From Catajapyx aquilonaris (lineage: Eukaryota): a stretch of 44,175 bases of DNA. Positions 1 through 42,788 of the stretch are shown here, piece after piece (position 1 is the first letter of the stretch; each line of letters opens with the position of its first letter). The notes under the pieces are model-generated. The model had not been told where the DNA came from. It worked only from the letters and a program-made list of their open reading frames with translations, and searched no databases. The DNA lies in assembly GCA_000934665.2 (NCBI GenBank), contig JYFJ02003265.1, positions 1 to 44,175 of the forward strand, given 5' to 3'. The translations under genes were made by a program, and so were the position numbers.

Positions 1-21
1 AGTTTTTCAAAATTTGCCTAC

Positions 22-294: not shown

Positions 295-853
295 CTTGCT
301 GGTCACAGGTCCAGACTGATATGCCAGGCTGGTAACCAAGCTGGCACCATCACACGTGTCTTTCATTCTTTTGTTCAAATCGCGTCGCCTCTACAGCGGA
401 CTCATCATCTGACTGGAATCCTGGAGATAGTCTGGCACTGACATCGTGAATGTCACACTTCGGTGTGGAGAAGGCATCACTTAGCCTGGATGGGGGGAAA
501 TAGCGGGCTACACGAAGCACCCATAATTTGTCCCGTACACGTGTCTATTTCTGCCCTTATCTGATGCGTCACCACCTGCTCTGGGAGCGGTTTTCAAACA
601 ACATGCTTCCAGCTTTCGCCCTGGGGTTACCGTTCGGAGGAGAGAAAAATGGAAATCTGTTTCTGGGACGATTTTTAGAGACCAACTTGTCTCAATAGTG
701 GATTGTCCCTTTAAGGGTGAAGTAAGGGTGGGCCGCCTATAATGCACTTCTGGCATTATTCCACTGTTCACACTGTTTACTCCTTTTGCTGCATGATGGC
801 ATCTCCATGGAAATCTAAAAAGTGAGTGATGGTGAATGAGAAGTTGATTATAG

Positions 854-21200: not shown

Positions 21201-24200
21201 TATGTCATGAATACTTTTTTTGGAGACGCCTATCTTTCTCTTCAGCATCACATTCACTGACACCTTGCAGACCTTTTGAGCTGCAAGCTCTTTTTCATAC
21301 TTCTCCGCACTGCTCTGAACAAACTTGATCCGATTGTCCTGGTCAACGAGTTTTTTCTTCCAATTACCAAGCTCTTCCATCACAGCGTTCTTCTTTTCAA
21401 GCAATGCTTCCATTACACTGTTCTCTTCCTCAATTTCACGAGACACTGTTACCACAATCTTTTCACAGTCACTGATCTTCTGTGGATACTCATCAAGTCG
21501 CCTTTGAAGCTAAAGAGAATATTCATCTGCTTTACTGTGTGGCGTATGCTCAATAATGGTTCACTGATGCACATTTAAATATGGTAACTACTACTGCATT
21601 CCAAAAGTATAAGTAGCTACTGTTTGGCTGTACAGTACAAGTTTTTAAAATCATTTCCATTAATGATCAATACAGCCACATGATGGCACATGTTTTTAGC
21701 TACCCCTGCATAGAAATACAATGCCAGTGTAATCATTTTTGAATTTTGGGGCCACATTCCACAATCTTATGTAATGTACTTTCACAGCCAATCTTTACCT
21801 ATTGGCTACTCCTTACGTTTCTCAGTCTACCAAAATTTTCTGGGGGCTGAGATACAAGTGAAGGTGACCATGGCCTGACAGCTAAAAGATGCCTCACTTG
21901 AACTGTTTGAGACTTTAATTACATCATGTGAGATATTTAGTTTATAAAAATGTATTAATAATTGGCTTCAGCATCATTTTTACTAATAGTGACATACGTA
22001 TTTTTGCCGACCCTACAGAGTTTCGAGTCTGTTTCACTTAGTGTTAGTTCCCCATATCATATGCTAAATTAGAGATAATGAATGTGATTACTAGGGCCAC
22101 TTGCCCTGGGTCAGGGTTTTCATGGCTTTCTTGGGTTTATTCCTGCATGAGAAACTTTTCAAAAGTATGTCAAGTTATTTCATTTCTCCAATTCATGCTC
22201 ATCTGCATAGAGTTCAAATTATGTGAATAAGAAATAATGACAAAATGTGGCTTTTAAAAACTCACCTCTATCATACAACAAAAGTTAACTTGTAACTTCT
22301 CAAAATTAACATTGACAAGCAAACAAAATCCCATGAACAGTTTGCAAAACATGGCCAGATTATATGACAGTAGGTCTATGCAAAAGTTTTGCAGTTTGTT
22401 GGAAAAACAGAAAATCTGGAAAACATATATTATTTTGTCAAAATATTGATCATCACTTTCAATAACCCTTAGCCAACGTTGGGTCAGAAGATGAATGCCC
22501 CGGTGGTAAAAGTTTCTGAGCTTTGCCTCAAAGAAGTCAACCACCCATTGCTCAATGGTGGTGAGGCTGGCAAAATTCTTGCCAAACAAGCCATATTGCA
22601 TAGAATGGAACAGGTGGAAATCCCAAGGGGAAATGTCTGGCGAGTATGTTGGGTGCCATAGCACCTCCCATCCCAGCTCCAACAACATCTTTTGTATCAC
22701 CCTCCCTCTGGTTTTTAAAAAATATGAGAAAACAGTGTCGAAATTGGTCTTGTTGGGGTGTCACATCTCAAAATGAGGGCAAAACAGGGACTAACAGAGC
22801 AAAACTTTAAAAACAATCCCAATGGAAGCCTTGACTTTGTTGACTCACATGGCTACCACAAAACAAATTCGGTTGTCAAATTGTTTAAGTTATTGACCAC
22901 CAAAGTCAACAGCACAAACGTTTGCATAGACCTAATAAATTACAAGTTACCTTTCATACGTTAATAAGTTGTCTCGACCTTCCCTCCACTTGTAGACAAA
23001 TGAAGAAATTTTTTTATCATGAGTTCACTACTTTGCACTGAATACATTCTAATATACTATGAGTTTCTTCATGTTCGTTTCTGCCTACCTTATGAACTCG
23101 GTCAGCTTCTTGTTTATATTTCATTTCTAAACGTCCAATTTCATCTCGTACAGTTACTTTGAGGTCAGCCAGCTTATCCTTGTGGACTTTAATCATGATA
23201 TCAAGGTGGCCCACATCCTCTTTGTGTTGCATAATTAATTTGTTCATCAGGGTTACCTGAGACCGCGAAGCGCCCAGCCTTGCCTCAGCTTCCTTTATGT
23301 TGTCTTGTAAAGGATCACTGTGGTTATTGGTGAACAGCAATAGAAAGTGGATTAAAATAAGGAACATTTAGTTAAGAAGGTAGCAGGTTAGTTGTGCTAA
23401 TTCAAATTCAAGCTAATTCAAGCTTGCATACATGCAGCAGAAATGTATGAAATTTAATGGCATTCATTGATATACTGTATACTGATCCTTTCTCTTCTCA
23501 GTTGTTTCATGAAAGATTTTCTGTTGAAGTCTGGCTTGACTTTAAAACCTTTTATTACTGATATATGGGAATTTTAATAGATCATACTGATTGACCCTTT
23601 CGTTTTACTCTTCTTGGGAATATGTAATAATTGGCATCAAAATATTTATTTTGCATTTTCTGCACAACTCAGCTATAAGTATATGTAGGATATACTTTCA
23701 CACTCACACACATCCATGAAATAGCAAGAAATGGCAATTTAATGATTACATGTTCACTCTATGCCATTAATTTTTTAAACCAAGCCACATCATGACAACT
23801 TTCAGGCTGCTGGCCCATTATGCACTGCCACAGGGAAGGAATGCAATATGTCACCAATACTTCCACTTCAGGCAATCCAATGTTCGATTCTGAGAGTGGA
23901 GGGACACAGTGAGATCAGCAGTTGCAGATGCTAGGGTGGGCAGCTTGGAGCAGACTGCAGGGCAGGAATCAGCAATTAGGAAGTTAATATCACCGCATGC
24001 TTCTAGCCTCAGTCATGGCAGGTAAATGTGGGACGTGCTGCAGAATTTTCCCACTCACATAATCTCCCTCCCAGGTGACATGTCATAATGGCACAGCATT
24101 ATAGAGCATGCCTGTGCGAAGAATCAAATGTCCTGCTGGACCAATGAATTGATTCACCAACTCACATGCAGTGCAGAATATTTAGGGTGGCAGTGAAACC

Positions 24201-25236
24201 AAATGGCACCTCATCATTGCAAAATGAATTTGACTCTGATGCCCATGGAAGGATAAAGGATATTTCTTGTCATATGCTACTTTACACTCCTAAATGCACA
24301 GATATTACTACCATGTTTCCTTTGTTGTGATATGAGAGATGTGTAATGATTATGTCATCAGTCACCTCAATCATAAAATGTAGGGAATCTCATTATTCCC
24401 TTTTGCCATATAATCTCTCATTGCAAATGTATGATGTCAATGATAACAGATCACCTGAATCAGAACAATGAATTTACAGCAGGACATATTCTTCCCCAAT
24501 CCCGTCACCACAATCAAACGTTCAGCTTTTGCTTTGCTCTGTATGAATACTTCATCACCTGAGCATCTTTTCTTAAACACACCCCATCACCTGTCACTCA
24601 AGACTGCTGACCTGTTGCTTTTTGTATGTTCTCCCTTCCTAACACTAGCAGTACATTTGCCTTACTGGAGTTCCAACAGCCGATCTGATTCTTTCTGAAT
24701 GGAGATGAGCAATTTGTTTTTCTCCTTCATCTGCAACTGCAGGATCTTCAGCTGTTCATGGCACTTCTTCACCAAGGTCTCTACTTCCTTCATCTTCATA
24801 TCTTCCAGAGTCTTCTTTGGAGCATGTCCTAATATTTCTATATACTCCATATCTGTCATCCTCTTCTCCACATCATCTGCTGTACTCAACATTAATGTCT
24901 TCTTGTGCAACTCATTCACAACATCGTCCTGCCTAGACGCTATATCTTTCTCAAAATCATGCATCTCACGAATAGCGGCTGCCAATGCACCCAAAATTTT
25001 CTGGCTCCTTTCTAATATAAATATACATTTGAATTAAGACTTTATTTGCATTTTTTGAACGTCATTCAAAGTCAAATACCTTGCTTGCTAAACACAATGT
25101 CTTTTACATGTCTTCCAAGTGGTATTGTGGGCACTGTCACTTCAATTTGGTTGAGAACCATGTAAATAGCATGGAATTCTTGATCGATATTTTCAATCAT
25201 TAAGCAATCGTCAAACCTGCCCATTGTCTGGTCCAT
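15288..25236 (-). CDS. Long coiled-coil protein, 754 aa (possibly CCDC175/CCDC178-like); exons 25236-25080, 25011-24666, 23317-23089, 21509-21142, 20418-19902, 18726-18581, 15789-15288
   Basis: Six E/K/Q/L-rich heptad ORFs of the ORF track plus the 25236-25080 exon join through GT-AG introns with compatible phases (1,2,0,2,0,2) into 2265 nt ending TAA at 15288. The family suggestion is weak (size and C-terminal pattern only). Confidence 0.85.
15993..16297 (-). mobile_element. Degenerate tRNA-derived SINE
   Basis: Minus-strand head with A-box-like TGGCGCTGTGGT and a degenerate B box GGATCAAATCT, with an A-rich tail. 15-bp TSD TGCTAC(A/G)GCCAATTT at 15978-15992 and 16298-16312. Confidence 0.7.
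16476..17050 (+). mobile_element. Internally deleted Sola1-like DNA transposon
   Basis: Perfect 30-bp TIR GAATAGCTGATTTTCTAAAGGGCGTAAGTC with AATT TSD. A frameshifted transposase-like C-terminus at about 16611-16769 reads KAYTEEVPINDKKIADIKKVLK/YIPEEHRPFYDKIVSWKT. Confidence 0.8.
17493..18050. mobile_element. Degenerate non-autonomous TIR element
   Basis: AGGAAGTACCCGTTTTACACC ... GGCGTAAAACTGGTACTTCCT inverted ends. Confidence 0.5.
18271..18296. repeat. (CT)n microsatellite
   Basis: Uninterrupted CT dinucleotide run. Confidence 0.9.
18489..18574. repeat. Perfect 38-bp inverted repeat with 10-nt loop (minimal Sola-like MITE?)
   Basis: CAATTGAATCACTTTTTATAAGAAGGGAACAAGTCCAA (18489-18526) and its exact reverse complement (18537-18574). 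The AATT|GAAT... ends resemble the Sola element at 16476. Confidence 0.9.
19269..19490. mobile_element. Tc1/mariner-type MITE
   Basis: TA|GAGTGTGTTCCAAGTAT ... ATACTTGGAACACACTG|TA. Confidence 0.65.
22373..22932 (-). mobile_element. Internally deleted mariner transposon with transposase C-terminal remnant
   Basis: Peptide LGWEVLWHPTYSPDISPWDFHLFHSMQ...FYHRGIHLLTQRWLRVIESDDQYFD is the mariner YSPDLAP region. TIRs TA|GGTCTATGCAAA ... TTTGCATAGACC|TA. Confidence 0.9.
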
Positions 25237-25923: not shown

Positions 25924-26099
25924 CTTGGCAGGTCCCGACCAAATAACTGGCTCCAACACTCTCCTGGAAATAAATTACTATATATTCTCACCATGCCACC
26001 GTCTGGATACCAGTGGTTCTCCAACTTTTCCATTATCCAATTATCATTATCAGCTCTTGTCATTATCCCGTATGGTCGTATAGGCTACCACCATACTGC

Positions 26100-26637
26100 A
26101 GAAACGTGTGTAATAAAGAACCAAGTTTCTAACCAGCTTGCGGCCCATTCAGCCCACCTTTAAGGACCCCTGCGACAGGCGAAAAGCGGAAAAGAACGAA
26201 CCTTTTCCACCGAAGGAGTGTTGTTCACGTCCCAACAGTGCTTGGCGGGAAAAGTCAAGATGGCTGCTTAGTGCTTAGTGTCCATTGGTCACCTTGCTTT
26301 TCACAGTTTCAAATAATTATGTAATACATCCAGCCGTGCATCAAGTACACCAGATCGGTTTACTCAAACTCGGCAATTGATCCAGCCGGTCCACGCATAT
26401 TTTTGCATTAAAATCTGATGTTGACCAGTTTTGCCACTTTGCTAAACAATAGAGCGTGTTCCGCCATCTTTGTGCTCCTTGCGACGGGATTGGCTGGGTG
26501 TTCCAAGATGGCGTCCAGAAGTGTGAACAAAGTGAGCATCGCAGTCCGCCGCCAGCTGTCCCTTTCCGCTGACGAGCTATTCTCCCCTGACGTCGTCGTC
26601 GTCGGTCGAGGGGCGTCGGAGGCAGCCAGACGGAACG
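26100..26637. promoter_or_regulatory. Bidirectional promoter between the CENP-W-like/coiled-coil unit (-) and RCN2-like gene (+)
   Basis: Divergent start codons about 715 bp apart (25923, 26638). E2F-type TTGGCGGGAAA at 26242-26252; YY1/Pho-type AAGATGGC or GCCATCTT at 26257, 26463 and 26505; CCAAT (minus) at 26284-26288. Confidence 0.6.
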
Positions 26638-29600
26638 ATGGGTCCCTTGCAGCTGGTGGCGATGGTGGCCTTGGCCTTGCCTTGCCTGACCGCCTCCGTC
26701 CCAGCCACGGCCGCCGGCAGCCCTCCACCGCAGCACTCGCACGCAGCGGGGGCGGCCCCAGGGAAGGAGAGGGAGCTGGACGGGGCCTACAGCCCGAGGG
26801 ACCACTCGCACTACCATGGCGACGAGCACCACACGGAATTCGACCACGAAGCAATACTTGGTACGCTCGTTATAATGTAGCACTTGCAGGAGAGGTCGTT
26901 GTCATCGCAAGCAAATCAACTCACGCAAAGATAACAGATCCATCCTTGGAAAAGTACCGATGGACAAGCTTTAAATTGTTACAGAAGTAATTATGAACTA
27001 TGACTGACCACTGCACAGAAAGTCGTCATTGATCTGGCAAAAGGACAAAATTCAGCATTTTTACAATTTTACAGGAGAGCCGAAAGAAACCTGCAAACCT
27101 CTACACGAACACGCAGGATGGCGTTTTGATTTTCCGTTCTAACTCTGACGCCACTTGTCCCATATGTTCACCGTATTGCCAGAATGTGACCCAACACTGG
27201 ATGGTGCTGGCAGAGGCCATAGTCCGATTTTAGCAAAAATGTCGAATTCGTTTCTTTGTCAGATTAAAGATCAAGCCCATATCTTTGGTCCACATGTTAG
27301 AAAAAACAGTAGTTCTCCCATCAGAAGTGTAAGCAAAAGTTGCAGTGCATCACTCTACTCCCAATTATCTATGTTGTGGATTATCCGTGCGTTGCCAAAA
27401 AATAAAGTGAGAAAAAGTCCGAAAGAATGTCACTATGTCTCGCAAACAAGGAAATATAACAGAATATTTTTCTATAGGCAGCAGACCCCTGAGAATGCAT
27501 GTCTGGCACCTCCCACTGTTCAAATTTCCACACATGCTCCAAGAAGGGAGTGAGAGTACTAAGTGAAGCAGACATTATTTTATTAAAATCATTCCACTGG
27601 CAAAGGAAATGTTATTCAGGGGCTTGCATGTTTCAAATGTAAATTGATATTGAGATATGGTGTACTTCTGTATGTAATTGTTTTATAAAGTAGCAACATT
27701 CTTTCTAAAACATCACTTATGCCACCTGGCAACCTCGGGTCCTTTGTAGAAATGTGAAAAGTGGGAGGTGCCAGACGTACATTCTCGGGCTTCCGACAAA
27801 CTGAAAATCTATGATTAGTTTTATTGTTTTCATTAAACCTTATTTAAAGCAGCATACACATTTAAAACTTTTGAATAGTTTATTTTTATAGTATCTAGGA
27901 CCATATTCAGATGATCCGTGTTTTCTAATATTGTGGAGACACCCATGCATTCACTGGCATGGATGATCGGGATTACAGTGGAATATTGTACCAATGCTAT
28001 CTTACTCGTATAATTTAGTTAAACAATACTTCTCTATTGCCATGCTCAAACAGTGCACGTGTGAATTATTGTTTTAAAAAGAGACACAAGTGTATGCTTG
28101 GTGTGTTCTGCAGGGAGTACAAAGGAGGCAGAAGAATTTGATCATCTGCCACCTGAGGAAGCCAAGAAGCGCCTCAGGATACTTCTTGGTAAAATGGACC
28201 TCAATCATGATCAGCAGATTGATCGTAATGAACTGCATGCATGGATATTACGCTCCTTCCAGTAAGCATAGTCACGATAACATGTAACAATTTTAGAGAA
28301 CGAAACTCTGTAATTTTTAAAACATTTTTGCCTCACCAGCATGTTATCGCAAGAAGAAAGTAAGGAAAAATTAGAGGAAGCTGATACTAATGAAGATGGA
28401 AAGGTCACGTGGGAAGAATATGTGGCGGAAACATTTGGCGATGACTCTGATGAGGACAATGAGATTGGTGACTCTGAAGAAGAGAAGAAAGTGCGTACTA
28501 TTGGTCATAAAGAGGTCAAAATCACTTTCTTGTTCCCAAAATTTCAGCTGATGGAGAATGATAAGGCCCTCTTCACTGCTGCTGATGCGAATAAAGATGG
28601 CACCTTAGACAAGGATGAGTTTCGGTCATTTTCTCATCCAGAGGAGAGTCCAGACATGCTCCCTGTTATCCTCAAGCAAACACTGGAAGACAAGGATGCC
28701 AATGGCGATGGATTTATTGACTTCAAGGAATATGTCGGGGAGAGAGGTTCGTGTAATTTGAGTTGAAATTAATTCCAGGACTACAAAAGAAATGGGTGCA
28801 TTTTTGCTTCAAGAAGAAATTAATTTTTCTTCAGTCTGTAGTGGGCAGAAATTTTCTCTTCTTTATGAAGGGTGGGAGAGAGGATTGGAATGTGCCCTTC
28901 ACAATAGTGAGAAGACACATATTTTTTGAAGGGTCAACCAAAAGCTACTTGAAGGTGGAATTACCGATAGCACTGTTAACATTTTCCTTTTCATGGTATG
29001 TTGTCTATGCAACAGATTATATTAGTCCTGGAATGATTTTGGAATGGTATCACAGCTTCATACTGTTGCTAAATGCATAAAACATAGTCTATGCAAGAAT
29101 GAATGCTTTTAAGAATAGGAGAAAAAGGTATCCGAAAATAAATCATACTGGTTGGTTTCCTGCTTCCAGACATGACAGACTGAAAATTTAATATTACACA
29201 TAGGCTTTACTAGCATGTGGGCAGTGGTGAACTGCCCTTCCACAAACTGAATATGTACAAATGATCTGGTTCTCAAGAGTAACAGTGAATATGGCCAGGC
29301 ACTTGCCCTGATGCACATCTCTGAATGTAAGGCCACAGTATGGAGGTTGCAAACGACTACCTGGCTTCTGACCAGTAAAACTGGAGAAGAGGCCGGTGTA
29401 CCACCACTGAGGAACACAATAAGTTAGTGTTTACAAATTTCCACTGTTGTGAAGTGTTACCCAACATTGGATGCAAAGCAGCTTTTTAGCAGATTATAGC
29501 TGGGGAGATGTTTCTTATGACAGGAAACTGAAGCTGCCTAGGAAAGATAGAAGAAGCAGCATATATCTTGCTCTGTCGCCTACCCCACGAAGATCATCCT

Positions 29601-32183
29601 GGATTGGGAGTGAAAGTTACTGTCAGCATAGATCTCAGGGTCATTGTAACACACAAGCCCCATCCCCGCAACATAGACATACCACGGTGGGGTTGTATGG
29701 GTGCTCATGTAATGGAAAGAGCCCTGAGCAGCCATTACATGTCATCAGAGGAAGCACATGAAACACTGCCAGAGGTGGCATCGGAATTTTCAGGATCATT
29801 CCAAAATCACTTTCATAAAGTGGGAGTCAGCACTATGATTTTGGCTGCATGTTAAAATCACTTTAGGATGATGATGTTGAGGTATATTGATTATATTAAT
29901 ATCTAATGGACCCGTTATTAATTATTCCTAGAAATGTACTGCCTCGTAATGGTACTGAATATTGTGTGCATAATTAGATTTAGTGCACTTCACCAGTTGT
30001 GAATGGTACATTAATTTGTAAATGTTATTTTCTTCTTGAAGCAGTGAAATTTTTATTAGGTTTTATTGTATGAGTGGTTGGGGTTTTATTTTGTGGGATT
30101 TAAAGACACATCATAAAAGAAATGAAGTTCCATCTCATAGGCCTGGAAGAACACGAGGCCTCAAAATATGACAGGAATTTCTTTGAGCGAGTCTTAGACA
30201 AAGATGGGGATGGGAAACTTGACCAAGCAGAGTTAATAGCCTGGACCAAATTCAAAACCGAGTCTGACGACAAGTAAGGCAGTCACTTAATTTGCACATT
30301 TAATATTTAAAATGAATTCCATGCAGGGTCTGTGGAGAGAACATAATTGCTGTTGTGCTTCCATTGCTCTAGAAACAAATTTTTCTGTTAAAAATTTTTA
30401 TGATGAAAGGAAGAGCTGAAATAAATACTGTAATTAGGATAATCTTTTGGATAACCTTGACAATGTCTGCAGCAGTTGCCTTGAAGACCCTGCATGTGTT
30501 CAAGTTGGGAGTTTGCTAGTCATCTGATTAATGCCTGTGAATCTTAGGAGGACACTGGCAAATAATCTGTCCTCCAAATCCAAGTAATTTAACTGCACTT
30601 ATGCACGTCTTTTGTGGAGGTGGGGACTACGTGCATTCTTGGTTTTCCCTTCCTATTCTTGAAATGAATAGTTAACGTGAACCTATTTAGATGTAACACC
30701 TCATTAGTAATTATAATACCAAATGTTACAGAATTCACTTGTCTGTACTAGCACTTCTGAGTCAAGATGGTACTCCTGTACCTGCTCAGAAAGGAAACCA
30801 AAGGCTCATTTCTTCCACTTTGCAGTCACTGATCCAACATGACGTGTGAGTTGTGACGTTGCACAATATTTCTACTGATGCAGATTTATGCTGAATTCTG
30901 TTAAATACGGAGTGGCTCCAGAGGGTTACTGCAATGTACACAATTTTAACATGAAATGTAATCAATTTATTATTATCTAGAGTGATATACACTGCCTTAG
31001 CTTACACCTCCAACAATAATAAATAGTGAAAGAGATGCATTACTTGCTCCAGTTGTTCATTCATATTGTCACTGTTAGATCTCAGTGTGAGTGTGAGGGA
31101 CTGGAATGTGTACGTGTGACTGGAGCAAGTAATCCATAGCCTTTTCCTATGCTCAATAGTTGGAGATATAAACATGAAGAATTTTACAGCATCAATTAGT
31201 TGTGCTTGGTGGAGGTGGTATGCAGGATAAGGAGCAATACTGAGCCCAATATATCGAATCCCAGCTTGCATGACAGTAATGGTCAGATTAGGTAGTTTGC
31301 GTTATCCTCTGGAGTGCTTAGTGTGAAAATTTTGCTATTGCAGTGTCTTTCACAGTTAACTAGGACCTATTTTTGACATGGCCTGTGATGCAGGTAAAAA
31401 CCGTGAAAATAAGGGTTACAGAGTGTTGCAATAGTGTCACAGATAAGATAAGTAGTTAAATTATTATTATTGAAATTGGAAAATGTGCTGAGATTTTTTG
31501 TCTTGATTAGACAGTATAATTATGCCATCCTGTGATGGTAAATGACTCTCATAACAATTAATTGCTATGACTGAGCATGAGCAAAAGTAATCCAGGTGCC
31601 AACTGATATCATGTTGCTAATGAGGTGTTCATTATGACTGCCCATACCTTGGTCATTTCTTTGAATCTTTCCCACAGCCAAAGAACACGACAAAGAGTGG
31701 CTACTAGTAGAGAAGGACAAGTTTGATCATGAGCACGATAAGGATAGAGATGGGAGACTAGATCCTCACGAAGTCCTCTCCTGGGTAGTGCCAAGTAATA
31801 CGTATGTTTTCTCATGCCCACATATGCAGTTTTCCTTCTTAAGTAGATGAATGCTAAGCACACCTGGTTTGCTGCATGTCTCTTGAAAATCCTTAGCGGC
31901 AACTACCCATCTATAGTTAATGCAGCATGTGTAGCAGTGCTGGATTTGAAAGACAGCTCAGTGCGGTTGGTATATAATAGGTGAATTGTTTATTGCCTGC
32001 TCTTATTTCAGTGAGATAGCAGAAGATGAAGTGGACCACTTATTTGCATCTGCAGATGATAATCATGACGATTATCTTGGCTTTAATGAGATCTTAGACC
32101 ATCACGATGTCTTCGTTGGAAGCGAAGCTACAGATTTTGGTGATCACTTGCACAATATACACGTCTTTCAGGACGAGCTCTAA
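26638..32183 (+). CDS. RCN2: Reticulocalbin-2-like CREC-family EF-hand ER protein, 338 aa; exons 26638-26860, 28114-28261, 28340-28490, 28548-28746, 31678-31801 (or alternative 30141-30273), 32012-32183
   Basis: Signal peptide; [29 protein letters not shown]; six EF-hand loops ([72 protein letters not shown]); [11 protein letters not shown] and a C-terminal QDEL retention signal. Intron phases are compatible. Confidence 0.93.
27488..27789. mobile_element. Degenerate palindromic MITE
   Basis: CCTGAGAATGCATGTCTGGCACCTCCCACTGTTCAAATTTC pairs with GAAATGTGAAAAGTGGGAGGTGCCAGACGTACATTCTCGGG. Confidence 0.6.
30141..30273 (+). CDS. RCN2: Alternative (mutually exclusive) EF-hand-5 exon of the RCN2-like gene
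   Basis: CTCATAG| ... |GTAAGG; encodes [44 protein letters not shown]. Phase 1 in and phase 2 out, identical to exon 31678-31801. Confidence 0.75.
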
Positions 32184-35100
32184 TAAGACAAGCAAATAAT
32201 GCCAGTGTGTCACACAGAAGGAAATCTTGCGTTTAAGTTATAGCACTAGTTAGACTAGCATCTACTAGTGATTTGGAAGTTGTTGTCCTTCCAATATGTA
32301 GATACGTCACAAGAACAAAACAATGGTTGTAAAATGAAAGGTTAATGTAGCTTTTCATTCCCCTTTATTTGTGCCAAAACTGTGTTTTAGGGAGTGCTCT
32401 TTGAAGAAGGAAGAGATGGGATTTGTTTTATAATCTAACTTGATCTTCTATCTTGTGTTTTATGTTTGTCACTGTGTGAATTCCACTGCTTTTTGTCACA
32501 GAGGGTAATTCAGTATTAAATAAAGAGATATCTGAATGTGCCAAACTAATATTTCTCTCCTGCATTTGTAGAAGAAAATGCAGAATGTTACTTGGTCCGG
32601 TGAGTGATCTGGACTGGGGTTGGGGCTATAGAATCACCCTCGAGTAGTCCTGTCCTTGTAGATGCTGCAGGCAATACATACTGACAACAATATCGCACGT
32701 TTACATAGTATTGCTCATTGATTTGTGACCTTGGGTCCTCATGTACACTGAAATTAACACACCAAGCAATGGTGCTGATGATTATTTCCCAGATGAGACC
32801 TTCAAACCGCACAATGGCCAACATACTGACAGATGGACAGCAACTAGCTATATCTCGGCTATGGAATAAGATAAGGAATTTTCATTTCTGCCCATTACGA
32901 GGATGCCCTGGTGAGAGAAAAATAATCAAGAGACTTTCGAAGTGACTGCAAAGAACTGAGGGGATAGGTGCATAAATATTAACACAATTTTCAATTGTAC
33001 ATGTTTATCCTTCTTAAAACAGTAGTTATGTACACAGAAGAACATTGGAAATAAAAACCACCATCACCGCACGAGAAAAAGTGTGAGGAAGTGCGACTTG
33101 ACACCTAATTTTTTTTTTGTATTTTTTCTAGTCCTTTTTTGTCTCTTTTTCTCCATGGGATTGGCAACAACTATTGCATATACTGTAATATGCAGCCGTA
33201 TAAAAAACTCTTTAAATAAATATCACCGCATCACTTATACACATTCAGGGAGTTCGGGAGCATGTATTATGCATGTTTGTGTACTTGTGTGTGTGTGAAT
33301 GGATGATTTTAAAGGTTAAAATGTGTGTCAATGAAAAATGTAATTATGCTTGCATTATTTCCTTCAAGTATTAGTCTTTTTCTCTCAACTTTTTTTTTTT
33401 GTTTGCTGTTTTCTCTCCTTTACTTCTCTAAGGCTTAGAACAGAAACTAAGGTTGGAAACTATGGTGTTTTTTTTGTTTTTTTGTTGGAAGAGCTGAGCC
33501 CACGCTACCTTGTGGATATTGACTGTTCCGATAACAAATATTCACATGCATCAATGTGACTGTATAAGTGAACAAACAACCAAGACGACACCTTTTTTTT
33601 TTTGAGCTCATTTCAAAAACCTTGTCCCATCTCCCTAAATATCCACAATGTGCCTGACTTTGCCAGCCAAGATCGAGTTGTCTTGCAATTGCAATAACAA
33701 CTAAGGAAAGAATTCAGAAGAATTTTTACACTGGGACTCTTAAAAAAACAATAATTACATAGAATCATACATGGTGTACACAACATTACATATTGCCACA
33801 TTCAGAAATACATAACTGTTGTGTACCATGAAGCAATGTACAGTTGTACATTAAATTTTTGTAGAACTTCAGATTACAAACTAAACAAAGCTGCATTGTA
33901 ACCAAAGGTTGAGGTAGTTAGGATCATTTCAATCCTAAGCAGTCTATATCCGCACTGGGGCAAAACAGAAACAAAGCACAGGCCTGACTTACAGTTGCTT
34001 TTAGTGCAACACACCGGTGTTTATATTGTACTTCATTGGAAAAAGCAGGGCGATTCGTGACATGTTGCTACCTCATTATTTTGTTAGCTCCCAACCATAT
34101 TATGCTGTGTTCACGATCTTTCAAGTGGCCATTGGACACAATACATGGGTGAAAGACATTCCTGAAAAATGGATTGTTGCTAGGCCAGCCCTGAGACATT
34201 TTCACGAGGTTGTGTTGCAGAGAGAGGGGGGCCAAGAAGAATGAGTACCGCAAGGTAGGGTTTATCTGGGCCCATTGCTACACATGGATTGTGTTGTGCA
34301 CTTTCAGTGAACCTTGGCAAGTTGAGGGATTGGAGCACCCATTGTCGTTTTGCATATTTGCCATGCTGTAGGTACAAATAAGGGCGCTTGTTTAGGTCTG
34401 CTTGTCCCACTGAAGGTATCACTTCAACCCACAAAGTTTGTTCTTGTTATTTTTTGGTTAATGGTATCAAACCATTATTAACAGGGACAAACCTAGGGTT
34501 TCGACTATATTTTCAGTGGTGCAACAGTATCATGGGAAACTCCTCGCCATGAGTTACACTGGCACCCACACATTTCAGGTGTCTCCCAGAGAAAATGCAT
34601 TCCAACCACAACTGAGGCTAGATCTGAGGCCTTTCACTTGAAACAATGCAGGTATCAGCAGGGAGTTCCTACATTCCCATTATGACAAATTTTGGTTTCT
34701 TTAATTGGCATGCGGGGTAAAATGTAAAACAATACTCTCACTGCACCCTTCCTGTCACCCAACGTCTTAGACAATCATTTTCATAAGGAGTAACACATCA
34801 TAAACAATTTCACAGAGCATGAATGCAAACCACTAATAACTTATTTCCCGTATTCACATGCATCACGTAACTACTTTTGAACTTCTCTTTCTCCCCCTTG
34901 CTCTTCGCATGCCTGCTTGCTAATCACTGCCCTGTATAAATAATTACCAATTGGCATGATGTCACTGAGCCCACCTATTAAGGAAGAAAATGTACATCAG
35001 GAAAGGTGCAAATGTCTGGCATATATTCAATTCAGAAAATCCCTGAACCTCATTGTACTGTGACAAACATACTGCAGCCCTTAATCTACAAAAAATAATA

Positions 35101-35978: not shown

Positions 35979-38900
35979 TCAGCGTATAAGGCAAGTGACG
36001 CACAGCTTGGAGGGGCCAATGCAGTCATCATGGCAAAAAGCCCCGCACTTCCTGCACATGATCATTGCGTTCAGGTTGCAGGCACAGTTGCTCTGGCTCT
36101 CACTTGTTGGGGCAGCTATTACTGCTGGTCCAACAGGAGGGGGCATCCCTGTGGTGGTGACAGGTTCCATCTTCACCTCCACCACACCGTTTACCCCATT
36201 GTCCATCACTGCCACCACTGTCCTTCTCTTGTCCATGCTATTGTTGTTTAACAACACTTGGGAGGGTGAATGTGATGGAGAAGGGGCAGGGGACGTGATG
36301 CACGGGGAGAGGGACGTGGGGATTAGATGCACTCCGCTAATTTCCACACTAGCAGGCCTGGGGCCAGGCATGAAGTCTGTCCGGGAAGGTGGGCGAGCTG
36401 GAGGGGCACTCGATGCCCTTCGCTGCTGCTGGTGTTGCTGTTGTAATTGCTGTTGTTGTTGCTGCTGAAGCTGCAATTGCTGCTGGTGTTGCTGCTGCAA
36501 CTGCTGTTGTTGTTGCTGCTGAAGTTGCTGCTGTTGCAATTGCTGCTGTTGCTGTTGAAGTTGCTGCTGCTGCTGCTGTAAGTGTTGCTGCTGTTGTTGT
36601 AGTTGCTGCTGTTGCTGCTGTTGCTGTTGCAATTGCTGTTGTTGCTGAAGTTGTTGATGTTGCTGCTGCTGGCCTGACATGGTCACTGTTGCCAAGGCAT
36701 CTGCAGCCACTTGGTGTGGCATTAGGAGTGGCGATGTAACTTTTGCAGGTCCAATCACTCCTCCAGCAGTTCCACCTGCTACACTTGTCTGCACCAGAAT
36801 GTATTGGCTCACATGGTTTGGAGACGGAACCATGGTACCATCCGGAACCTTTGCAAGAGACAAGGGCAGGCATTAAGTGATTACACATTGATCAGAGCTA
36901 ATCACAAGACATGAAGAGCACAGTGGTCATGTTTTCTAATTTATTTACTCTACCACTGGTGTGCTTCCATAACCTCAGTGGTCCTTAAATTTCCATACCA
37001 AGTGACAGGAACAATAAACTTGTTGCCATTCACCATTCCCCCCTGACAATCAAGTGTGGTAGATGACATATTAGTTCAAAGAAGGGAATGTCCATGAGAT
37101 TGTCGCCCTGACTTTCTTTAACCCTTTGTCCCCCACGCGATGTTGCACTGTTCCCGAGGGGGTTTAAAAAGAGCGCCCTCAGTGAAAATCACTGGATCTG
37201 GCACCATTGGTTTCGCTCTCGACTCATGCACAAGAGGGGGCTGGACATTGCGAGACATACCAATCTACGCTGCATATCGAGAGACAAAAGGTGGCTCAGG
37301 TGTCAAGCAGGCACCGCCAAGAGCTCGGAGCACTCCGCCCGGCCAATAAGGCGCGAGGATGCATTTTATGACCAAAATGGCTCTGGGGGAGATTGTCTAC
37401 CCTTCACAGACCGTTTGGATTTTCCCCCCGCTCAGTGTGACATTTCAGCAATCCAGCGGGATTTAAATGGAAAAGTGACCCCTCTCTAATATACGAAAAC
37501 ACGACTTATTTAGAAAGAGTCATGTCTCGTTGTTAATAAAATGTGGGTTAAGTTCATTTTAAGAGTCCCACATCACCTAAAAAATGGACCTATCCATACC
37601 CCCACCGGACCACATTACGAGATACTTCCACGCAAGTGATTATCATTCATTTACTTTGCCGGACGAGTGTGCTGCATGCGCACATTGCATCTTGGTTAGA
37701 ATTTTGTTTTCTGCAACTTCAGACCTGGCAAGGTAAGTTTACTGGCATTTACTCTCTAAAAGCAGCATTGTATAATTATATCAAATTTTCAAAACATTGC
37801 CTCAGGAATCTCTCGTAAGTGTTGCGCCACGCTGCATTATTTGACACTTACTATATTTTACCGCATTTTACCCACATCATACCACATGTACACAAAAGTA
37901 GGACGTATGGGCTATTCAAAAATGTAATAAAATTTTGCGGAAGTTTGCGCAACTGCATAAAAGTTACTCGTTTTCAGAATGTGCCCCCGCATTCACATAT
38001 GTTTTTTTTTTGACATAATATTTGTGTGTAGCATTAATGACAGTCAGAAGCAAGAGTCATAATCATATTGTACCTCATCAGTTTTGTAATTATGTGAAAT
38101 TATCTCTATCTCTATAAATAAGGAAGTTTGTCTGTTTATTTGTCAATTTGGATGTTTGTCCCTTATAGAAATCCGGGGGAAGGCCCCTACACCGCCTTAA
38201 ATTAGCATATCGGGAGTTACATTTTTCAAGGAATTTAATGCCGCATGTTTCAGCTTCCGAAAATGAACCTAACACCCATAACACGCATATTCCCAATTAA
38301 CCAATTATCAATTACCTATTTAACAATATTCATAGATTTCCATGGTAATGCCCTCATTACATTGTAGGCCTACCACCATAACAATGACCATAACATACCC
38401 GGGCAACGCCGGGTAACCTGCTAGTGGTTAATAAAATTGCACGATTATGTAGGCTCATTATTTTATATGTGATTACTATAAATGCCTATAAAGGCATTAC
38501 AAACCGTTTCTATTGTGCAGTATTATTCATAAAAACCCATTTAAAAATATTCCCGCACATAGTTTTTCACACCGGAATAAAATCCCGCTGGATTGCCAAA
38601 ATGTCACACTGTGCCCCGGCGAAAAGTACGTCGCAGAATTTCAGGACTTTTAAAATGGTTTTCAGCTGCACGTCCACGTACCGTGAAATATGCGGCAGGG
38701 AGCTACGTGTATTTAAATTCGCGCAGTAAGTGTTTGTTTCTGGTTGTTTTAAATGAATGAAACCTTTGGACTATGACGTCGTGCTATTAAAAATATCACG
38801 CGAGTGGCGTAAATATTCATGAACATATCTGAAGGCTATAGTGAAAGCTATTTCAGTGTTGGACATAAATTGAGGCATACTGCTAGCGACATTTTCTGAA

Positions 38901-41900
38901 GCGGCAGAGGAAGGAATCTTGCTCACCCGGCTTGCAGATCTTTATCTTCGATTCCTTCTTCTGCCGATTTGGAAAATGTCACTAGCCATCAGTGCCTCGA
39001 ATGCCTCGATTAATGTCCAACACTGTACCAGTGAACTTTAAAAAATTACTAGGAAAACCCTCGCTCTGCTCGCATTTTCCTAGGGCACAGGCCTAGAAAA
39101 CCACTCACTTTGCTCGCTCTTTTCTAGGCCTGCGGTCTGAGGTACCTATTCGGCGCACCATATCGCTGGGCCCGCAGGGGGAGGGTATAATGTTAGCCCT
39201 CCAGCAGTCTTCGAACAGCCCAATTAGTGAGAAGTGAGAACATGTCTGTCCTGTGTCTGTCATTCCATAAAGGGAACTGACATAAGTGAACAACTTCACA
39301 GTAGTGCCAACTGGGCAACAATACAGAGAACTAATGGACAGTTTCCCCGGCAACCCAACAGAGGAGTTGTTTACACCCCATGGCGCATGATTAGAACACG
39401 GGCCAGTGGGGAGGTGGCGGTAACAATATGCGGCGGACCAATCAGAGGGCTCGGTCAAACACCGCAATAATTTTAATATGATAGATTTTGTTTGGTTGTA
39501 TAATTATACAACCAAATCGGGCCGCGGGAGACAAAGGGTTAAAGTGTAATATTGCAGGTTAGGAACATCCTACAGACTGTCCTATACTTACTCAATAACA
39601 CAAGCACAAAAGTAGCATTTAAAAAATTACAACGTCTCAAAAAAATCAGGTCAAAAATCCAACAGTGCAACACTTATTTACGAGATTCAAAATACTTTTC
39701 AGATGTTAATCAAGCTACGTCCAGTCATGAAATCGTTGATTAATTAATAATGCCACCTAAAAAGGCCTAATTTATGGCAATGTTCACAACTGTTGCTTTT
39801 GAGCTTTTGGAAGCACACCATGAAGTGCAATTGAGTCATCTTTTTCCCATGCACCTAACATATGCAATGTTTCATTTAAATGCAGGGGGTTTCCTGTAAC
39901 TCTGTAAAGACTTGCAGGGGTAATAGAGGGGACCAAGACAAGTATTTTTGACACAAGAACCTGTGTCTGGGAACGCCATCTAGAGGGGGTTCATAGACAA
40001 GGAACGGGTGCGCTCCAACGCTTCACACAGGAGTTGCTACCATGGTTGCTAGGCAAGCTGACTGTTCTGTTGATAGATGGCAAGCAGTTGTTGCCAGGTT
40101 ATGGTGTATCGCGTCGTTGTAAGCAAATAACAACGGGGTACGCCATAACCTGGCAACAACAGAACCGCTGTTTACTCTCCAAGCGTCTCCCAGGAGGCGG
40201 ACTTTAGTTGCTGGACGGGTCTGCTGTTGCCAGGTTATGGCACATAGTGTTTACTATCCGAGCGTCATCTATCAACAAAACAGTCTGCTCGCCTAGCCCC
40301 TCTTGCGTGACGCGTTCCTGGTCTATGAACCCCCTCTAGATGGCGTTTCCGGACATGGGTTCCTATGTCAAAAATACTTGTCTTGGTCCCCTCTATTACC
40401 CCTGCAAGTCTTTACCGAGTTACAGGAAACACCCTGTATAATGAAATAGAATTCAAGTTACTGAAATATGAACTAAAATGTTCCTATTTTGGAATTCAAT
40501 GTATAAATAGCTTTACTTTATAAGCATTTTGTAACACTTGAAATATAAATGAAGCAAGGAAGAGTCACTTACTTGATAAAAAAGCAAGGTGCATTGGGTA
40601 AAAAAATATGTATCACTATGTGTATCACTATACTAAGGACCTTAACAATATAAATTAGTTCTACCACTACATATTTAATTATGTGATGTCACACAACAAT
40701 TTTAAAAATACCAAAACATTACCATTACATTCAGATACCACAAAACTGGGTTAATTCTTGTAAGCAAGTTATTGACATTCGAGGGTGCACGATCCTGCAA
40801 AAACCTCATAAATTTCAGAGCAATCCTGTACAACCTATTAGGAAATATGTGTCAGTATCTTGCACTAATCTACAACAAATAAATATATTTTTTTCCGGTT
40901 CTCTCATGAAAATTTAACATGAAGTTACAAAGCAAGTAATTTCATCTGATATCAGATGAAGTAAAATATTTTTGTCAGTATATATCAAGACATGAACACT
41001 CAGGATGCAGAGGGGGTCGTGCCACTAGCAATAGTGCATAGATGCATATGAGGTAGCAAACCAAGGTAGAGCACATGGACCAAGACAGGTAATACGCTTT
41101 AAAAGCAATGTGTAAACTCTCAACTATGTCAAGCCATTGCACAAAATTCCGTAGAGCCTACCTACCCTGATAGGTCAAAGGTCATGATTTTGCCTACTTT
41201 TTCTGCCCAAAACTTCAGAATTGTCCAATTGTAGTTGCACAAATGAAGATGCTAGTTAGTGAACCTCATATTACAGCTGCAAAAGGTTCTTCCGCCTCTT
41301 GCCAATTATATGGGCATAAAACCAGGGGGCTCTTATGGTAACAGTTCCGGTTGGCAGGATGTCCGAGTTTATGGATTTGCGAAAGCAGGCAGAGGTTTAA
41401 AGCAACATGCTTCCTTCACAAAATCTGCCTGATTTCACACTACTTGGAGCACACAAATAACATTCATTAAGAAAACAATGATTGCCAATTAAATACTAAG
41501 AAGCAGTAAGTCGCTACAACTTTCCCCTACCTAGCCAAATACATAACAAATTATTCAAACAATAAATAAATAACTAAAACAATCACCATTATAAGCAATA
41601 AATTTTCTAGAACCTGGTAAGTGCAGTCTGGAGATAGAACAAGTAATCAAGCCATTCCCAAGCAAGTTAAATGCTAAAATGCAGTATTTCCAAACAAGGC
41701 AAAACAGGGAAGGTGCACAAACTAATTACACTATTACACGAGGTGTTTCCTTCATGCTCACCTGCAGCAGCAAGGCATTCCCAATCCCAGGGGAAGGCCT
41801 GACAAGGTTCACCATGGCTGGGTTCAAATTGCGATGTTGTGGCAGGGGCTGGGCCAGAGTTAAGGACTGGGGAATGGCCATGGGCTGTTGAAGAACTTGT

Positions 41901-42714
41901 GGCAATACCTGGGTTAGGGGCTGGGGCATGGACTGCTGAAGTACTTGCGGTAGGACGTGGGTTATGGGCTGTGTCAGGACGGAGAGAGGCTGCGTTATTG
42001 ACATGGGCTGGGGCAGGGCCTGCGGTAGTGCCTGTGGCAAGGCCTGAGAAAGGGCTTGGGATATTTGCTGTGGAATTTGTTGGGTCATATGTTGGGTCAT
42101 TTGTTGTGTCATTTGTTGTGTCATTTGTTGTGTCATTTGTTGTGTCATTTGTTGTGTCATTTGTTGGGTCATTTGTTGTGTCATTTGTTGTGTCATTTGT
42201 TGTGTCATTTGTTGTGTCATTGCTTGGGTCATTTGCTGGGGCAAGGGTGGACCCATGGGTGGGGGCATGGACTGGGACAAAGACTGGGGCACAGCCTGGG
42301 GTAGACACTGAGGCAGAGATTGTGGCACAGCCTGGGACAGGCACTGGGGCAGGGATTGGGGCACATTCTGGGGTATACACTGCGGCAATGATGGGGGCAA
42401 AGGCTGGGGTGGCAGGGGTGGACCCAGAGGCTGGACTAAGGGTGGGGCCCGATGGGGTACTCCAAATGTTGCTGGGTTCCTCCTTGGTTGTGCTTGCTGC
42501 ACTTGAAATCGCATGCCCCTCTGATGGTAGTGCTGCTGCGGTTGATTTGGAAACAGATGAGGGTTTGGATGCTGTGGATGCTGTTGCATTTGCAATTGTG
42601 GATGCACATGTCGGTTGCTTTGTGGCTGCTGGGTGTGGAACCTGGCTCCACTTACAACTTTGCGTGGATCATATTGCTGCAGGTCTGGCCTGCAAGCTGC
42701 TGTTACAGGTGTCG

Positions 42715-42788
<74 letters not shown>

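What the first reader, a model, noticed from the sequence alone, without database searches (positions are those of the whole stretch)
30141..31801. Tandem-duplicated, mutually exclusive EF-hand-5 exons in the reticulocalbin-2-like gene
Seen: exons 30141-30273 (133 nt) and 31678-31801 (124 nt) both enter in phase 1 and exit in phase 2, and both have good splice sites. Both encode an intact EF-hand loop followed by the conserved Trp ([16 protein letters not shown] vs [16 protein letters not shown]). Using both or neither shifts the frame, so only one can be included. The upstream copy is highly diverged outside the Ca2+-ligand positions yet stop-free, suggesting selection for a second isoform (341 vs 338 aa) with different partner or Ca2+ properties.
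Basis: partly seen in the sequence, partly recalled or inferred. Interest (0 to 1): 0.72.

Follow-up and report, generated by a model that had tools for sequence, protein, structure and literature searches.

The report
Alternative EF-hand-5 exons in reticulocalbin-2-like gene
An arthropod-type ER calcium-binding protein gene carries two tandem copies of the exon for its fifth calcium-binding site; a close relative splices in one or the other, and shrimp, crab, lobster and water-flea gene models already show the same arrangement.

Summary
Exons 30141-30273 (133 nt) and 31678-31801 (124 nt) lie side by side in a six-EF-hand, QDEL-ended reticulocalbin-2-like gene on the + strand. Both have AG/GT borders, enter in phase 1 and leave in phase 2. 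Each encodes a complete EF-hand loop. Using one gives 341 or 338 aa; using both or neither gives an early stop.

The one public run that held part of exon A (X1, Logan contigs, a diverged relative) contains spliced contigs of this gene. One contig joins exon 4 > exon A > last exon, another joins exon 4 > exon B > last exon, exactly at the predicted sites. There exon A differs at 5 of 135 bases and exon B at 1 of 126, against 65 of 491 in exons 2-4. A dead pseudo-exon is therefore very unlikely.

The arrangement is not new in kind. RefSeq isoform pairs of three Daphnia species, Artemia, Homarus, Palaemon, two Penaeus species and Eriocheir differ only in this same EF-hand-5 segment. Vertebrate calumenin has mutually exclusive EF-hand-1 exons (PMC4494069).

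Exon A matches none of the crustacean alternative exon types specifically. Its use in the window's own species and its tissue pattern remain untested. Interest is modest.

The parts
26638..26860 (+). Coding part of exon 1: ATG, hydrophobic N-terminus (presumed signal peptide), His-rich stretch; ends in phase 1
   Evidence: Sequence; tblastn to butterfly and tick reticulocalbin-2; partly covered by the X1 spliced contig
28114..28261 (+). Exon 2 (EF-hand 1)
   Evidence: joined to exons 1, 3 and 4 in the 801-nt contig of X1
28340..28490 (+). Exon 3 (EF-hand 2 and acidic linker)
   Evidence: X1 contig
28548..28746 (+). Exon 4 (EF-hands 3 and 4); ends in phase 1; donor GAG|gttcgt shared by both alternative exons
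   Evidence: Pfam EF-hand_5 E 7.7e-13 and EF-hand_7 E 9e-10; X1 joints
30141..30273 (+). Exon A: upstream, diverged alternative EF-hand-5 exon (133 nt, phase 1 in, phase 2 out)
   Evidence: Translation; EF-hand_1 21.7 bits, E 1.3e-4; X1 contig of 193 nt joins 28746>30141 and 30273>32012, with 5 differences in 135 nt
31678..31801 (+). Exon B: canonical EF-hand-5 exon (124 nt, same phases)
   Evidence: Translation; 87.0 bits against a profile of 72 canonical arthropod EF-hand-5 segments; X1 contig of 184 nt joins 28746>31678 and 31801>32012, with 1 difference in 126 nt
32012..32183 (+). Coding part of the last exon (EF-hand 6, ...QDEL, stop TAA)
28805..28828 (+). Left arm of an intronic inverted repeat, 59 nt downstream of the exon 4 donor (candidate only)
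   Evidence: pair I1: 24 nt, 88% complementary, 15 nt perfect; duplex -23.4 kcal/mol; 2 of 300 dinucleotide shuffles reach 15 nt
30020..30043 (+). Right arm of the same inverted repeat, about 100 nt upstream of the exon A acceptor (candidate only)

Best explanation
The window holds a reticulocalbin-2-like (CREC family) gene: presumed signal peptide, six EF-hands, C-terminal QDEL. The exon for EF-hand 5 has been duplicated in tandem, and the two copies are spliced in a mutually exclusive way. Exon 4 (ending in phase 1) joins either exon A or exon B, and either one joins the last exon (starting in phase 2). This gives 341-aa and 338-aa proteins that differ only in EF-hand 5 and the linker to EF-hand 6.

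The frame enforces exclusivity at the product level. Both exons together give a premature stop inside exon B, upstream of the last junction, so nonsense-mediated decay is expected (inferred). Neither exon gives a stop three codons into the last exon.

Shown: the anatomy, the homology of the two exons, and both single-inclusion junction pairs in spliced contigs of a related organism. Also shown: both exons are conserved at the nucleotide level well above the constitutive exons.

Inferred: the window's own species splices the same way. Both isoforms bind Ca2+, because both loops keep D1, D3, D5, G6, a hydrophobic residue at 8, and E12. The isoforms differ in the surfaces of the flanking helices and in the EF5-EF6 linker (B has ...W-V-V-P-S-N; A has a longer, charged [10 protein letters not shown]). 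That would mean different partner binding or EF5/EF6 pairing in the ER lumen rather than presence or absence of Ca2+ binding. Exon A, with its weak polypyrimidine tract, is probably the regulated choice.
For: Anatomy and frame.

Homology of A and B: 10 of 22 identical, E 1e-6; both align to residues about 234-274 of butterfly reticulocalbin-2; exon A scores 29.1 bits and exon B 87.0 bits against a profile of 72 canonical EF-hand-5 segments.

Not chance: (8 of 8 EF-loop pattern matches in the whole window, six frames, lie in this gene's exons).

Splicing. Run X1 has an 801-nt contig joining exons 1-4 without introns. A 193-nt contig holds 28 nt of the exon 4 end, then exon A, then 30 nt of the last exon. 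A 184-nt contig holds the same flanks around exon B. All four joints are GT..AG at the predicted bases. The contig depths are 9.05 and 10.6, though the tool warns that contig depth cannot rank parts of a gene. Both short contigs stop after 28-30 shared flank bases. As I recall, Logan's contigs are built from 31-base words (no call showed this); if so, that is what a splice bubble within one gene gives.

Constraint. Differences between the window and X1 are 5 of 135 in A, 1 of 126 in B, 65 of 491 in exons 2-4 (Fisher p 0.001 and 3e-6) and 15 of 192 in the last exon. Of the 32 listed differences in exons 2-4, 27 fall on third codon positions. The relative is therefore well diverged at silent sites, yet A and B are nearly unchanged.

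Precedent at the same exon slot. Of 12 same-species RefSeq isoform pairs compared, 10 differ only in the EF-hand-5 segment: 3 Daphnia species, Artemia, Homarus, Palaemon, 2 Penaeus species, and 2 pairs in Eriocheir.
Against: There is no read or contig from the window's own species. The sequencing-run search listed a single run, X1, of unrecorded library kind. It was found by 2 of 9 sampled words. That it derives from RNA is inferred only from its intron-less contigs.

The joints were seen at min_likeness 85, with 28-30 nt on the shorter side. The tool itself flags that range as error-prone in mixed samples.

Contigs show presence only. They cannot exclude both-in or both-out transcripts, nor give isoform ratios.

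The positions of the 5 differences in exon A were not among the rows shown, so I cannot say whether they are synonymous.

No protein in the two large libraries carries an exon-A-like segment. In one search, 2 word candidates were found and none scored. In some searches, 0 of the 150 best hits end in an ER-retention motif. Both searches are weak for a 43-aa EF-hand query, and clustering may hide isoforms.

No functional difference between the isoforms has been tested.
Confidence: 0.85

Rival explanations
1. Exon A is a decaying, unused duplicate (pseudo-exon) that merely happens to be still open and flanked by AG/GT.
For: Its acceptor has the weakest polypyrimidine tract of the gene (9 of 20). 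The open frame around it is only 57 codons. No library protein contains it. No RNA holder was listed for the window's species.
Against: A spliced contig of a related organism includes it, with exact junctions on both sides. It differs at only 5 of 135 bases from that organism, while exons 2-4 differ at 65 of 491, mostly at third codon positions. A neutral intronic sequence should be at least as diverged as silent sites. All Ca2+-ligand positions of the loop are intact.
Confidence: 0.05
2. Exon A is included only as low-level splicing noise or as a decay-targeted or unproductive form, without a distinct protein function. The conservation reflects RNA-level elements, not an isoform.
For: Contigs cannot give isoform ratios (tool caveat). 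Suppressed silent-site change in both exons shows nucleotide-level constraint, which need not be protein-level.
Against: Inclusion of A alone keeps the frame through to QDEL, so it is not a poison exon. The EF-hand loop consensus is perfect and scores higher against Pfam EF-hand_1 than exon B does (21.7 against 16.8 bits). The contig with A has a depth (9.05) similar to the contig with B (10.6) (depth is a rough figure). Other crustaceans keep 2-3 alternative EF-hand-5 exons, all with loop-like motifs.
Confidence: 0.08
3. In the related organism the A-form and B-form come from two paralogous genes, each keeping one exon, as in teleost CALUA/CALUB. They would then not come from alternative splicing of one gene.
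For: Splice-isoform separation after gene duplication is documented for calumenin in teleosts (PMC4494069, passages read). Contigs alone do not prove a single locus in X1's organism.
Against: In the window both exons sit in one gene between the same flanking exons. The two X1 contigs end after 28-30 nt of shared flank, as expected if the flanking exon sequence is identical in both forms (inference from how such contigs are built).
Confidence: 0.02

Closest known systems
RefSeq isoform sets of 'reticulocalbin-2(-like)' in decapods (Eriocheir sinensis X1/X2/X3, Penaeus monodon, P. japonicus, Homarus americanus, Palaemon carinicauda) and branchiopods (Daphnia pulex, D. carinata, D. magna, Artemia franciscana)
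   Same: Orthologous gene (58.9-63% protein identity to the four decapod, Daphnia and Macrobrachium models listed among the best 25; the other species were not listed). The same exon slot lies between ...E-Y/F-x-G-x-K/R and D/E-I-A-E. The isoforms are identical except for a 39-47-aa EF-hand-5 segment (10 of 12 pairs). The alternative segments keep EF-loop-like motifs.
   Different: Those are automated gene models, and I found no paper describing them. Decapods have three variants; the window has two (one search finds no third intact loop). Exon A does not match their alternative types: 5.7 and 7.4 bits against the two decapod alternative profiles and 20.5 against the branchiopod alternative profile, compared with 29.1 against the canonical profile. 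It may therefore be an independent duplication.
Calumenin (CALU) mutually exclusive homologous exons in jawed vertebrates
   Same: Same protein family (CREC). A tandem-duplicated exon encodes one whole EF-hand, and one of the two copies is used (PMC4494069, passages read).
   Different: In CALU the alternative exons encode the first EF-hand, not the fifth. The event dates to jawed vertebrates. It is an independent event in a different paralogue and phylum. A 2026 review of human RCN2 mentions an extra in-frame exon and ERC-55 variants, but no EF-hand-5 exon pair in the passages I searched (PMC13704534).
Alpha-actinin EF-hand mutually exclusive exons
   Same: Tandem duplicated exons that swap an EF-hand (cited in PMC9741552 and PMC9177970; passages read).
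   Different: In actinin only one of the two variants keeps Ca2+ binding (PMC9741552 passage). Here both loops keep every ligand position. The protein family and cell compartment are unrelated.
Arthropod docking-site/selector RNA structures in mutually exclusive exon clusters (Dscam exon 6, 14-3-3 xi; recalled, no call)
   Same: One strong intronic inverted repeat could loop out most of the intron between exon 4 and exon A.
   Different: No second selector complementary to the same site lies upstream of exon B: of 6 matches with up to 3 mismatches in the window, only the two arms themselves lie within the gene's spliced region, exon 1 to the last exon. Conservation could not be tested.

Membership tests
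Mutually exclusive tandem-duplicated exons (tandem duplicated exon substitution) | Two or more neighbouring exons occupy the same slot between the same constitutive exons | tested here: met
   Exon A and exon B lie 1404 nt apart between exon 4 and the last exon.
Mutually exclusive tandem-duplicated exons (tandem duplicated exon substitution) | The exons are homologous to each other | tested here: met
   BLASTP 10 of 22 identical, E 1e-6. Both align to the same residues of butterfly RCN2. Both score against the canonical EF-hand-5 profile.
Mutually exclusive tandem-duplicated exons (tandem duplicated exon substitution) | Same splice phases and similar length; including both or neither breaks the frame | tested here: met
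   133 and 124 nt, both 1 mod 3. With both, stop at codon 301; with neither, stop at codon 243.
Mutually exclusive tandem-duplicated exons (tandem duplicated exon substitution) | Mature transcripts carry one or the other | tested here: met
   In the related organism of run X1, one contig runs exon 4 > A > last exon and another runs exon 4 > B > last exon. This was not tested in the window's own species. Contigs cannot exclude both-in or both-out forms.
CREC family (reticulocalbin/calumenin type ER-lumenal EF-hand proteins) | Sequence homology to family members over the full length | tested here: met
   56.8-65% identity over about 306-342 aligned aa among the 25 best hits, which include annotated reticulocalbin-2 of insects and crustaceans, E down to 6e-153. 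149 hits with the last exon alone.
CREC family (reticulocalbin/calumenin type ER-lumenal EF-hand proteins) | Six EF-hand motifs | tested here: met
   Loop pattern at EF1, EF2, EF3, EF4, EF5 (A or B) and EF6. Pfam EF-hand families on exon 4 pass the curated cut-offs.
CREC family (reticulocalbin/calumenin type ER-lumenal EF-hand proteins) | N-terminal signal peptide and C-terminal ER-retention tetrapeptide | tested here: inconclusive
   The C-terminus reads QDEL before the stop; Daphnia orthologues end the same way. The N-terminal hydrophobic stretch is seen, but no signal-peptide predictor was run.
EF-hand (Pfam PF00036 / PF13405 / PF13202) | Match to the family profile above the curated cut-off | tested here: inconclusive
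   The exon A peptide alone scores 21.7 bits on EF-hand_1 (cut-off 25.4), E 1.3e-4. Exon B alone scores 16.8 bits. Each exon peptide is a single short hand, so sub-threshold scores are expected.
EF-hand (Pfam PF00036 / PF13405 / PF13202) | 12-residue loop with ligands at positions 1, 3, 5 and 12, Gly at 6, hydrophobic at 8 | tested here: met
   [12 protein letters not shown] (A) and [12 protein letters not shown] (B). The loop rule itself is recalled textbook knowledge.
Competing docking-site/selector RNA structure mechanism | One docking site complementary to a selector next to each alternative exon | tested here: not met
   One repeat pair (28805-28828 and 30020-30043) serves exon A only. 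No related sequence lies upstream of exon B.

The most novel reading that the evidence does not exclude
The EF-hand-5 slot of the pancrustacean reticulocalbin-2 gene is an old hotspot of tandem exon duplication that keeps turning over. Malacostraca carry three variants, Branchiopoda two, and this lineage carries its own variant, which matches none of the others. Both alternative exons here are nearly frozen at silent sites. That points to an RNA-level switch, perhaps involving the 15-bp intronic stem next to exon A. The switch would tune which clients or partners this ER Ca2+ buffer engages. This would make the CREC family a case of convergent EF-hand swapping in vertebrates (CALU, EF-hand 1) and arthropods (RCN2-like, EF-hand 5).
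Probability: 0.3. Interest if true: 0.5.

Novelty: new member of a known kind. Interest (0 to 1): 0.33.

Why it matters
It adds a well-supported case to the small class of tandem-duplicated, mutually exclusive exons, in a family (CREC) where the only described case is vertebrate calumenin. Together with the crustacean RefSeq models it shows that one EF-hand of an ER-lumenal Ca2+-binding protein is repeatedly diversified by exon swapping while every Ca2+ ligand is kept. This suggests that surface or partner specificity, not Ca2+ binding itself, is what varies. For annotation, a gene model for this locus should carry two isoforms, of 341 and 338 aa. It does not open a new mechanism or settle an open question.

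Tried and rejected
1. RNA holders. The look-up of sequencing runs with exon A (133 nt, 9 sampled words) listed no RNA holder. It listed one run of unrecorded kind, X1, with a share of 0.22. This blank says nothing about expression in the window's species.

2. Word-index protein search with exon A, longer proteins. 2 candidates were found and none scored. This is weak, because 90% clustering can hide isoforms.

3. Full HMMER search of 1.84 billion representatives with exon A. 284 hits had E <= 1e-3. The 150 listed are generic multi-EF-hand proteins, and 0 of 150 end in an ER-retention-like motif. This is uninformative, because 50% clustering merges isoforms.

4. Exon 4 as query. Only 3 hits. 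The butterfly isoforms X1/X2 differ by 6 aa at the exon 3/4 junction, not in EF-hand 5. The tick cluster members listed (Haemaphysalis X1 and X2 among them) all carry the same canonical-type EF-hand-5 segment; X1 and X2 differ at one residue in the last exon.

5. Whole-genome search of the window's assembly: no genome is held.

6. Metagenome contigs. I repeated it with the 57-aa open frame around exon A. It returned 2 loci, both matching only residues 8-30 of the query, which are mostly intron-derived letters and exclude the EF loop. They are chance hits and were discarded.

7. Earlier notes of this scan: nothing by place, by words or by sequence.

8. Third alternative exon. No further intact EF-loop was found in the introns.

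9. Competing-structure model. duplexfold of the putative docking region against the other introns gave long, loop-ridden structures of about -27 to -30 kcal/mol everywhere and did not discriminate. No second selector was found. The model is rejected as it stands.

10. Transposon origin of the inverted repeat. By eye, the 8 nt flanking the arms show no target-site duplication. This remains unresolved.

11. Literature. No paper combines CG9148 with 'mutually exclusive', or reticulocalbin with 'alternative splicing' and crustacean. Reticulocalbin with 'mutually exclusive' gave 19 papers, of which 15 were listed. I opened 2 of them and neither describes such an exon pair in a reticulocalbin gene; of the other 13 I saw only titles and abstract starts. 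Reticulocalbin with tandem and 'duplicated exon' gave 1 paper, which is about the splicing code of human EF-hand exons. Supplementary tables of the mutually-exclusive-exon catalogues were not opened.
Full report
**The gene.** On the + strand the window holds a gene whose coding exons I place as follows:
- exon 1: 26638-26860
- exon 2: 28114-28261
- exon 3: 28340-28490
- exon 4: 28548-28746
- either exon A (30141-30273) or exon B (31678-31801)
- last exon: 32012-32183

All borders are AG/GT. tblastn with a butterfly and a tick reticulocalbin-2 recovers exactly these blocks. The last exon alone finds 149 proteins, and those that carry a source name are mostly 'reticulocalbin-2' or 'Reticulocalbin-3' of insects and crustaceans. 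The spliced B-form, built from coordinates in a script, is 338 aa. It is 56.8-65% identical to the best 25 of these, with Orthoptera, termites, Daphnia and Macrobrachium about equally close. The protein ends in QDEL. A permissive EF-hand-loop pattern marks EF1-4, EF5 (twice) and EF6, and it matches nowhere else in the six frames of the 44-kb window (8 of 8 matches lie in this gene). This is therefore a CREC-family ER Ca2+-binding protein of a pancrustacean-like arthropod. I did not try to name the species.

**The observation.**
- Exon A is 133 nt and exon B is 124 nt. Both enter in phase 1 and leave in phase 2.
- The translations are open and hold complete loops, [12 protein letters not shown] and [12 protein letters not shown], each followed by the conserved Trp.
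- With A the protein is 341 aa and with B it is 338 aa. With both exons the frame stops at codon 301, and with neither at codon 243.
- A and B are homologous: 10 of 22 identical, E 1e-6.
- Both align to the same residues of the butterfly protein, B at 54% and A at 37%.
- B is the canonical copy. It scores 87.0 bits against a profile of 72 distinct canonical EF-hand-5 segments, and A scores 29.1.
- Exon A has the weakest acceptor tract of the gene (9 of 20 pyrimidines) and one of the best donors (7 of 9).

**Is exon A used?**
It listed one run, X1, of unrecorded kind, holding 2 of 9 sampled words.
- Laid on 26000-33500 at 85% likeness, X1 proved to hold intron-less contigs of this gene from a diverged relative.
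- An 801-nt contig joins exons 1-4.
- A 193-nt contig (depth 9.05) carries 28 nt of the exon 4 end, then exon A, then 30 nt of the last exon.
- A 184-nt contig (depth 10.6) carries the same flanks around exon B.
- The four joints are 28746>30141, 30273>32012, 28746>31678 and 31801>32012, all GT..AG.
- Both short contigs end after 28-30 shared bases. As I recall, Logan's contigs are built from 31-base words (no call showed this); a bubble in such a graph looks like this when one gene yields two splice forms.

The caveats are real. X1 is one run. Its RNA origin is inferred from the spliced contigs. The short sides of the joints are at the length the tool warns about. Contigs show presence, not ratios and not absence.

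**Constraint.** Table 8 gives these differences between the window and X1:

| Exon | Differences | Aligned bases |
|---|---|---|
| Exon 2 | 20 | 141 |
| Exon 3 | 22 | 149 |
| Exon 4 | 23 | 201 |
| Last exon | 15 | 192 |
| Exon A | 5 | 135 |
| Exon B | 1 | 126 |

Of the 32 differences listed for exons 2-4, 27 fall on third codon positions. The two organisms are therefore well separated at silent sites. Against the 65 of 491 differences in exons 2-4, exon A is depleted (Fisher p 0.001) and so is exon B (p 3e-6). A neutral pseudo-exon would be at least as diverged as silent sites, and exon A is the reverse. Suppressed silent change in both alternative exons is what regulated alternative exons commonly show (general knowledge, not tested here). 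The rows shown did not include the five exon A differences, so a dN/dS value could not be computed.

**Comparison with what is known.**
- Among the 120 listed relatives, decapod and krill proteins carry three kinds of segment between ...QEYIGDK and DIAEDEV.... Branchiopods carry two kinds.
- I compared 12 same-species RefSeq isoform pairs. Ten differ only in this segment: Daphnia pulex, D. carinata, D. magna, Artemia franciscana, Homarus americanus, Palaemon carinicauda, Penaeus monodon, P. japonicus, and Eriocheir sinensis X1/X3 and X2/X3.
- The other two pairs differ elsewhere. The mayfly pair differs by one residue at the start of the same exon, and the beetle pair differs at the N-terminus.
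- No insect among the listed proteins shows a non-canonical EF-hand 5. Clustering could hide such isoforms.
- Exon swapping at EF-hand 5 is therefore already present in public gene models of crustaceans.
- I found no paper on it.
- The described precedent in the family is calumenin. Its mutually exclusive homologous exons encode EF-hand 1 and date to jawed vertebrates (PMC4494069, passages).
- A review of human RCN2 mentions other variants only, in the passages I searched (PMC13704534).
- Convergent tandem exon substitution in vertebrates, arthropods and nematodes is a known theme (PMC9741552, passages).

**Is exon A orthologous to the crustacean alternative exons?** Exon A scores 29.1 bits against the canonical profile. 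It scores 20.5 against the branchiopod alternative profile, and 7.4 and 5.7 against the two decapod alternative profiles. For scale, against the canonical profile the branchiopod alternative exons score 41-53 bits and the decapod ones 8-23. Exon A thus resembles the canonical exon more than any alternative type. This fits an independent duplication or heavy divergence. Forty-odd residues cannot decide between these.

**Mechanism.**
- Shown: the frame rule that makes only single inclusion productive.
- Excluded: steric exclusion between A and B (the intron between them is 1404 nt) and U12-type incompatibility (all sites are ordinary GT-AG).
- Candidate element: an inverted repeat of 24 nt (15 nt perfect, -23.4 kcal/mol). 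It pairs a site 59 nt downstream of the exon 4 donor with a site about 100 nt upstream of the exon A acceptor. Only 2 of 300 shuffles give a perfect repeat that long. It could bring the weak exon A acceptor close to the donor.
- No matching selector precedes exon B, so the classical competing-structure model is not met. Conservation is untested.
- Protein level (inference only): both loops keep all ligand positions. The isoforms should therefore differ in helix surfaces and in the EF5-EF6 linker rather than in whether they bind Ca2+.

**Verdict.** It is a new member of a known kind, mutually exclusive tandem-duplicated EF-hand exons, in a slot that crustacean gene models already show to be variable. 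Its use in the window's own species, its tissue pattern and its functional consequence remain open.

Noticed in passing
window 28491-28547: Intron 3 is only 57 nt, in frame and stop-free, so retention would insert 19 aa between EF-hand 2 and EF-hand 3. The X1 contig skips it. The butterfly Aricia agestis isoforms X1/X2 differ by a 6-aa insert at the same junction.
   Followed up: partly
window 28805-28828 and 30020-30043: An intronic inverted repeat (15 nt perfect, 24 nt at 88%, duplex -23.4 kcal/mol) brackets most of the intron upstream of exon A. Only 2 of 300 shuffles reach 15 nt. By eye there is no target-site duplication, and no partner lies near exon B.
   Followed up: partly
window 30141-30273 and 31678-31801 versus 28114-28746: Both alternative exons are far less diverged from the X1 relative (3.7% and 0.8%) than constitutive exons 2-4 (13.2%, mostly third positions). 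This implies constraint on silent sites in the alternative exons.
   Followed up: yes
window 22254-22760 (- strand): A 168-codon open frame looks like the C-terminal part of a mariner-type transposase. It lies inside an intron of the neighbouring minus-strand coiled-coil gene. I recognised it by eye and did not test it.
   Followed up: no
window 19881-25033 (- strand); 7718-14535 (+ strand); 35979-43075 (- strand); 7-390 (- strand): Neighbouring genes seen only as long open frames. One is a coiled-coil protein in several exons. One is a kinase-like protein resembling nuclear receptor-binding protein. One is a poly-Gln-rich protein ending in a Cys-rich, PHD-like motif. One is a THAP-like zinc-finger frame. 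All names are by eye, and none was searched.
   Followed up: no
proteins P0313 / P0171 (Neocloeon triangulifer isoforms X1/X2): The two mayfly isoforms differ by a single residue exactly at the start of the EF-hand-5 exon. This suggests alternative acceptors 3 nt apart rather than an exon swap.
   Followed up: no
protein P0163 (383 aa) and Daphnia magna models P0289 / P0287 (389 / 386 aa): P0163 strings the alternative EF-hand-5 segment, part of the last exon and the canonical EF-hand-5 segment in series. This is probably a mis-model of the same exon cluster. The D. magna models are about 60 aa longer than other Daphnia models, while their X1/X2 difference is still confined to EF-hand 5.
   Followed up: no
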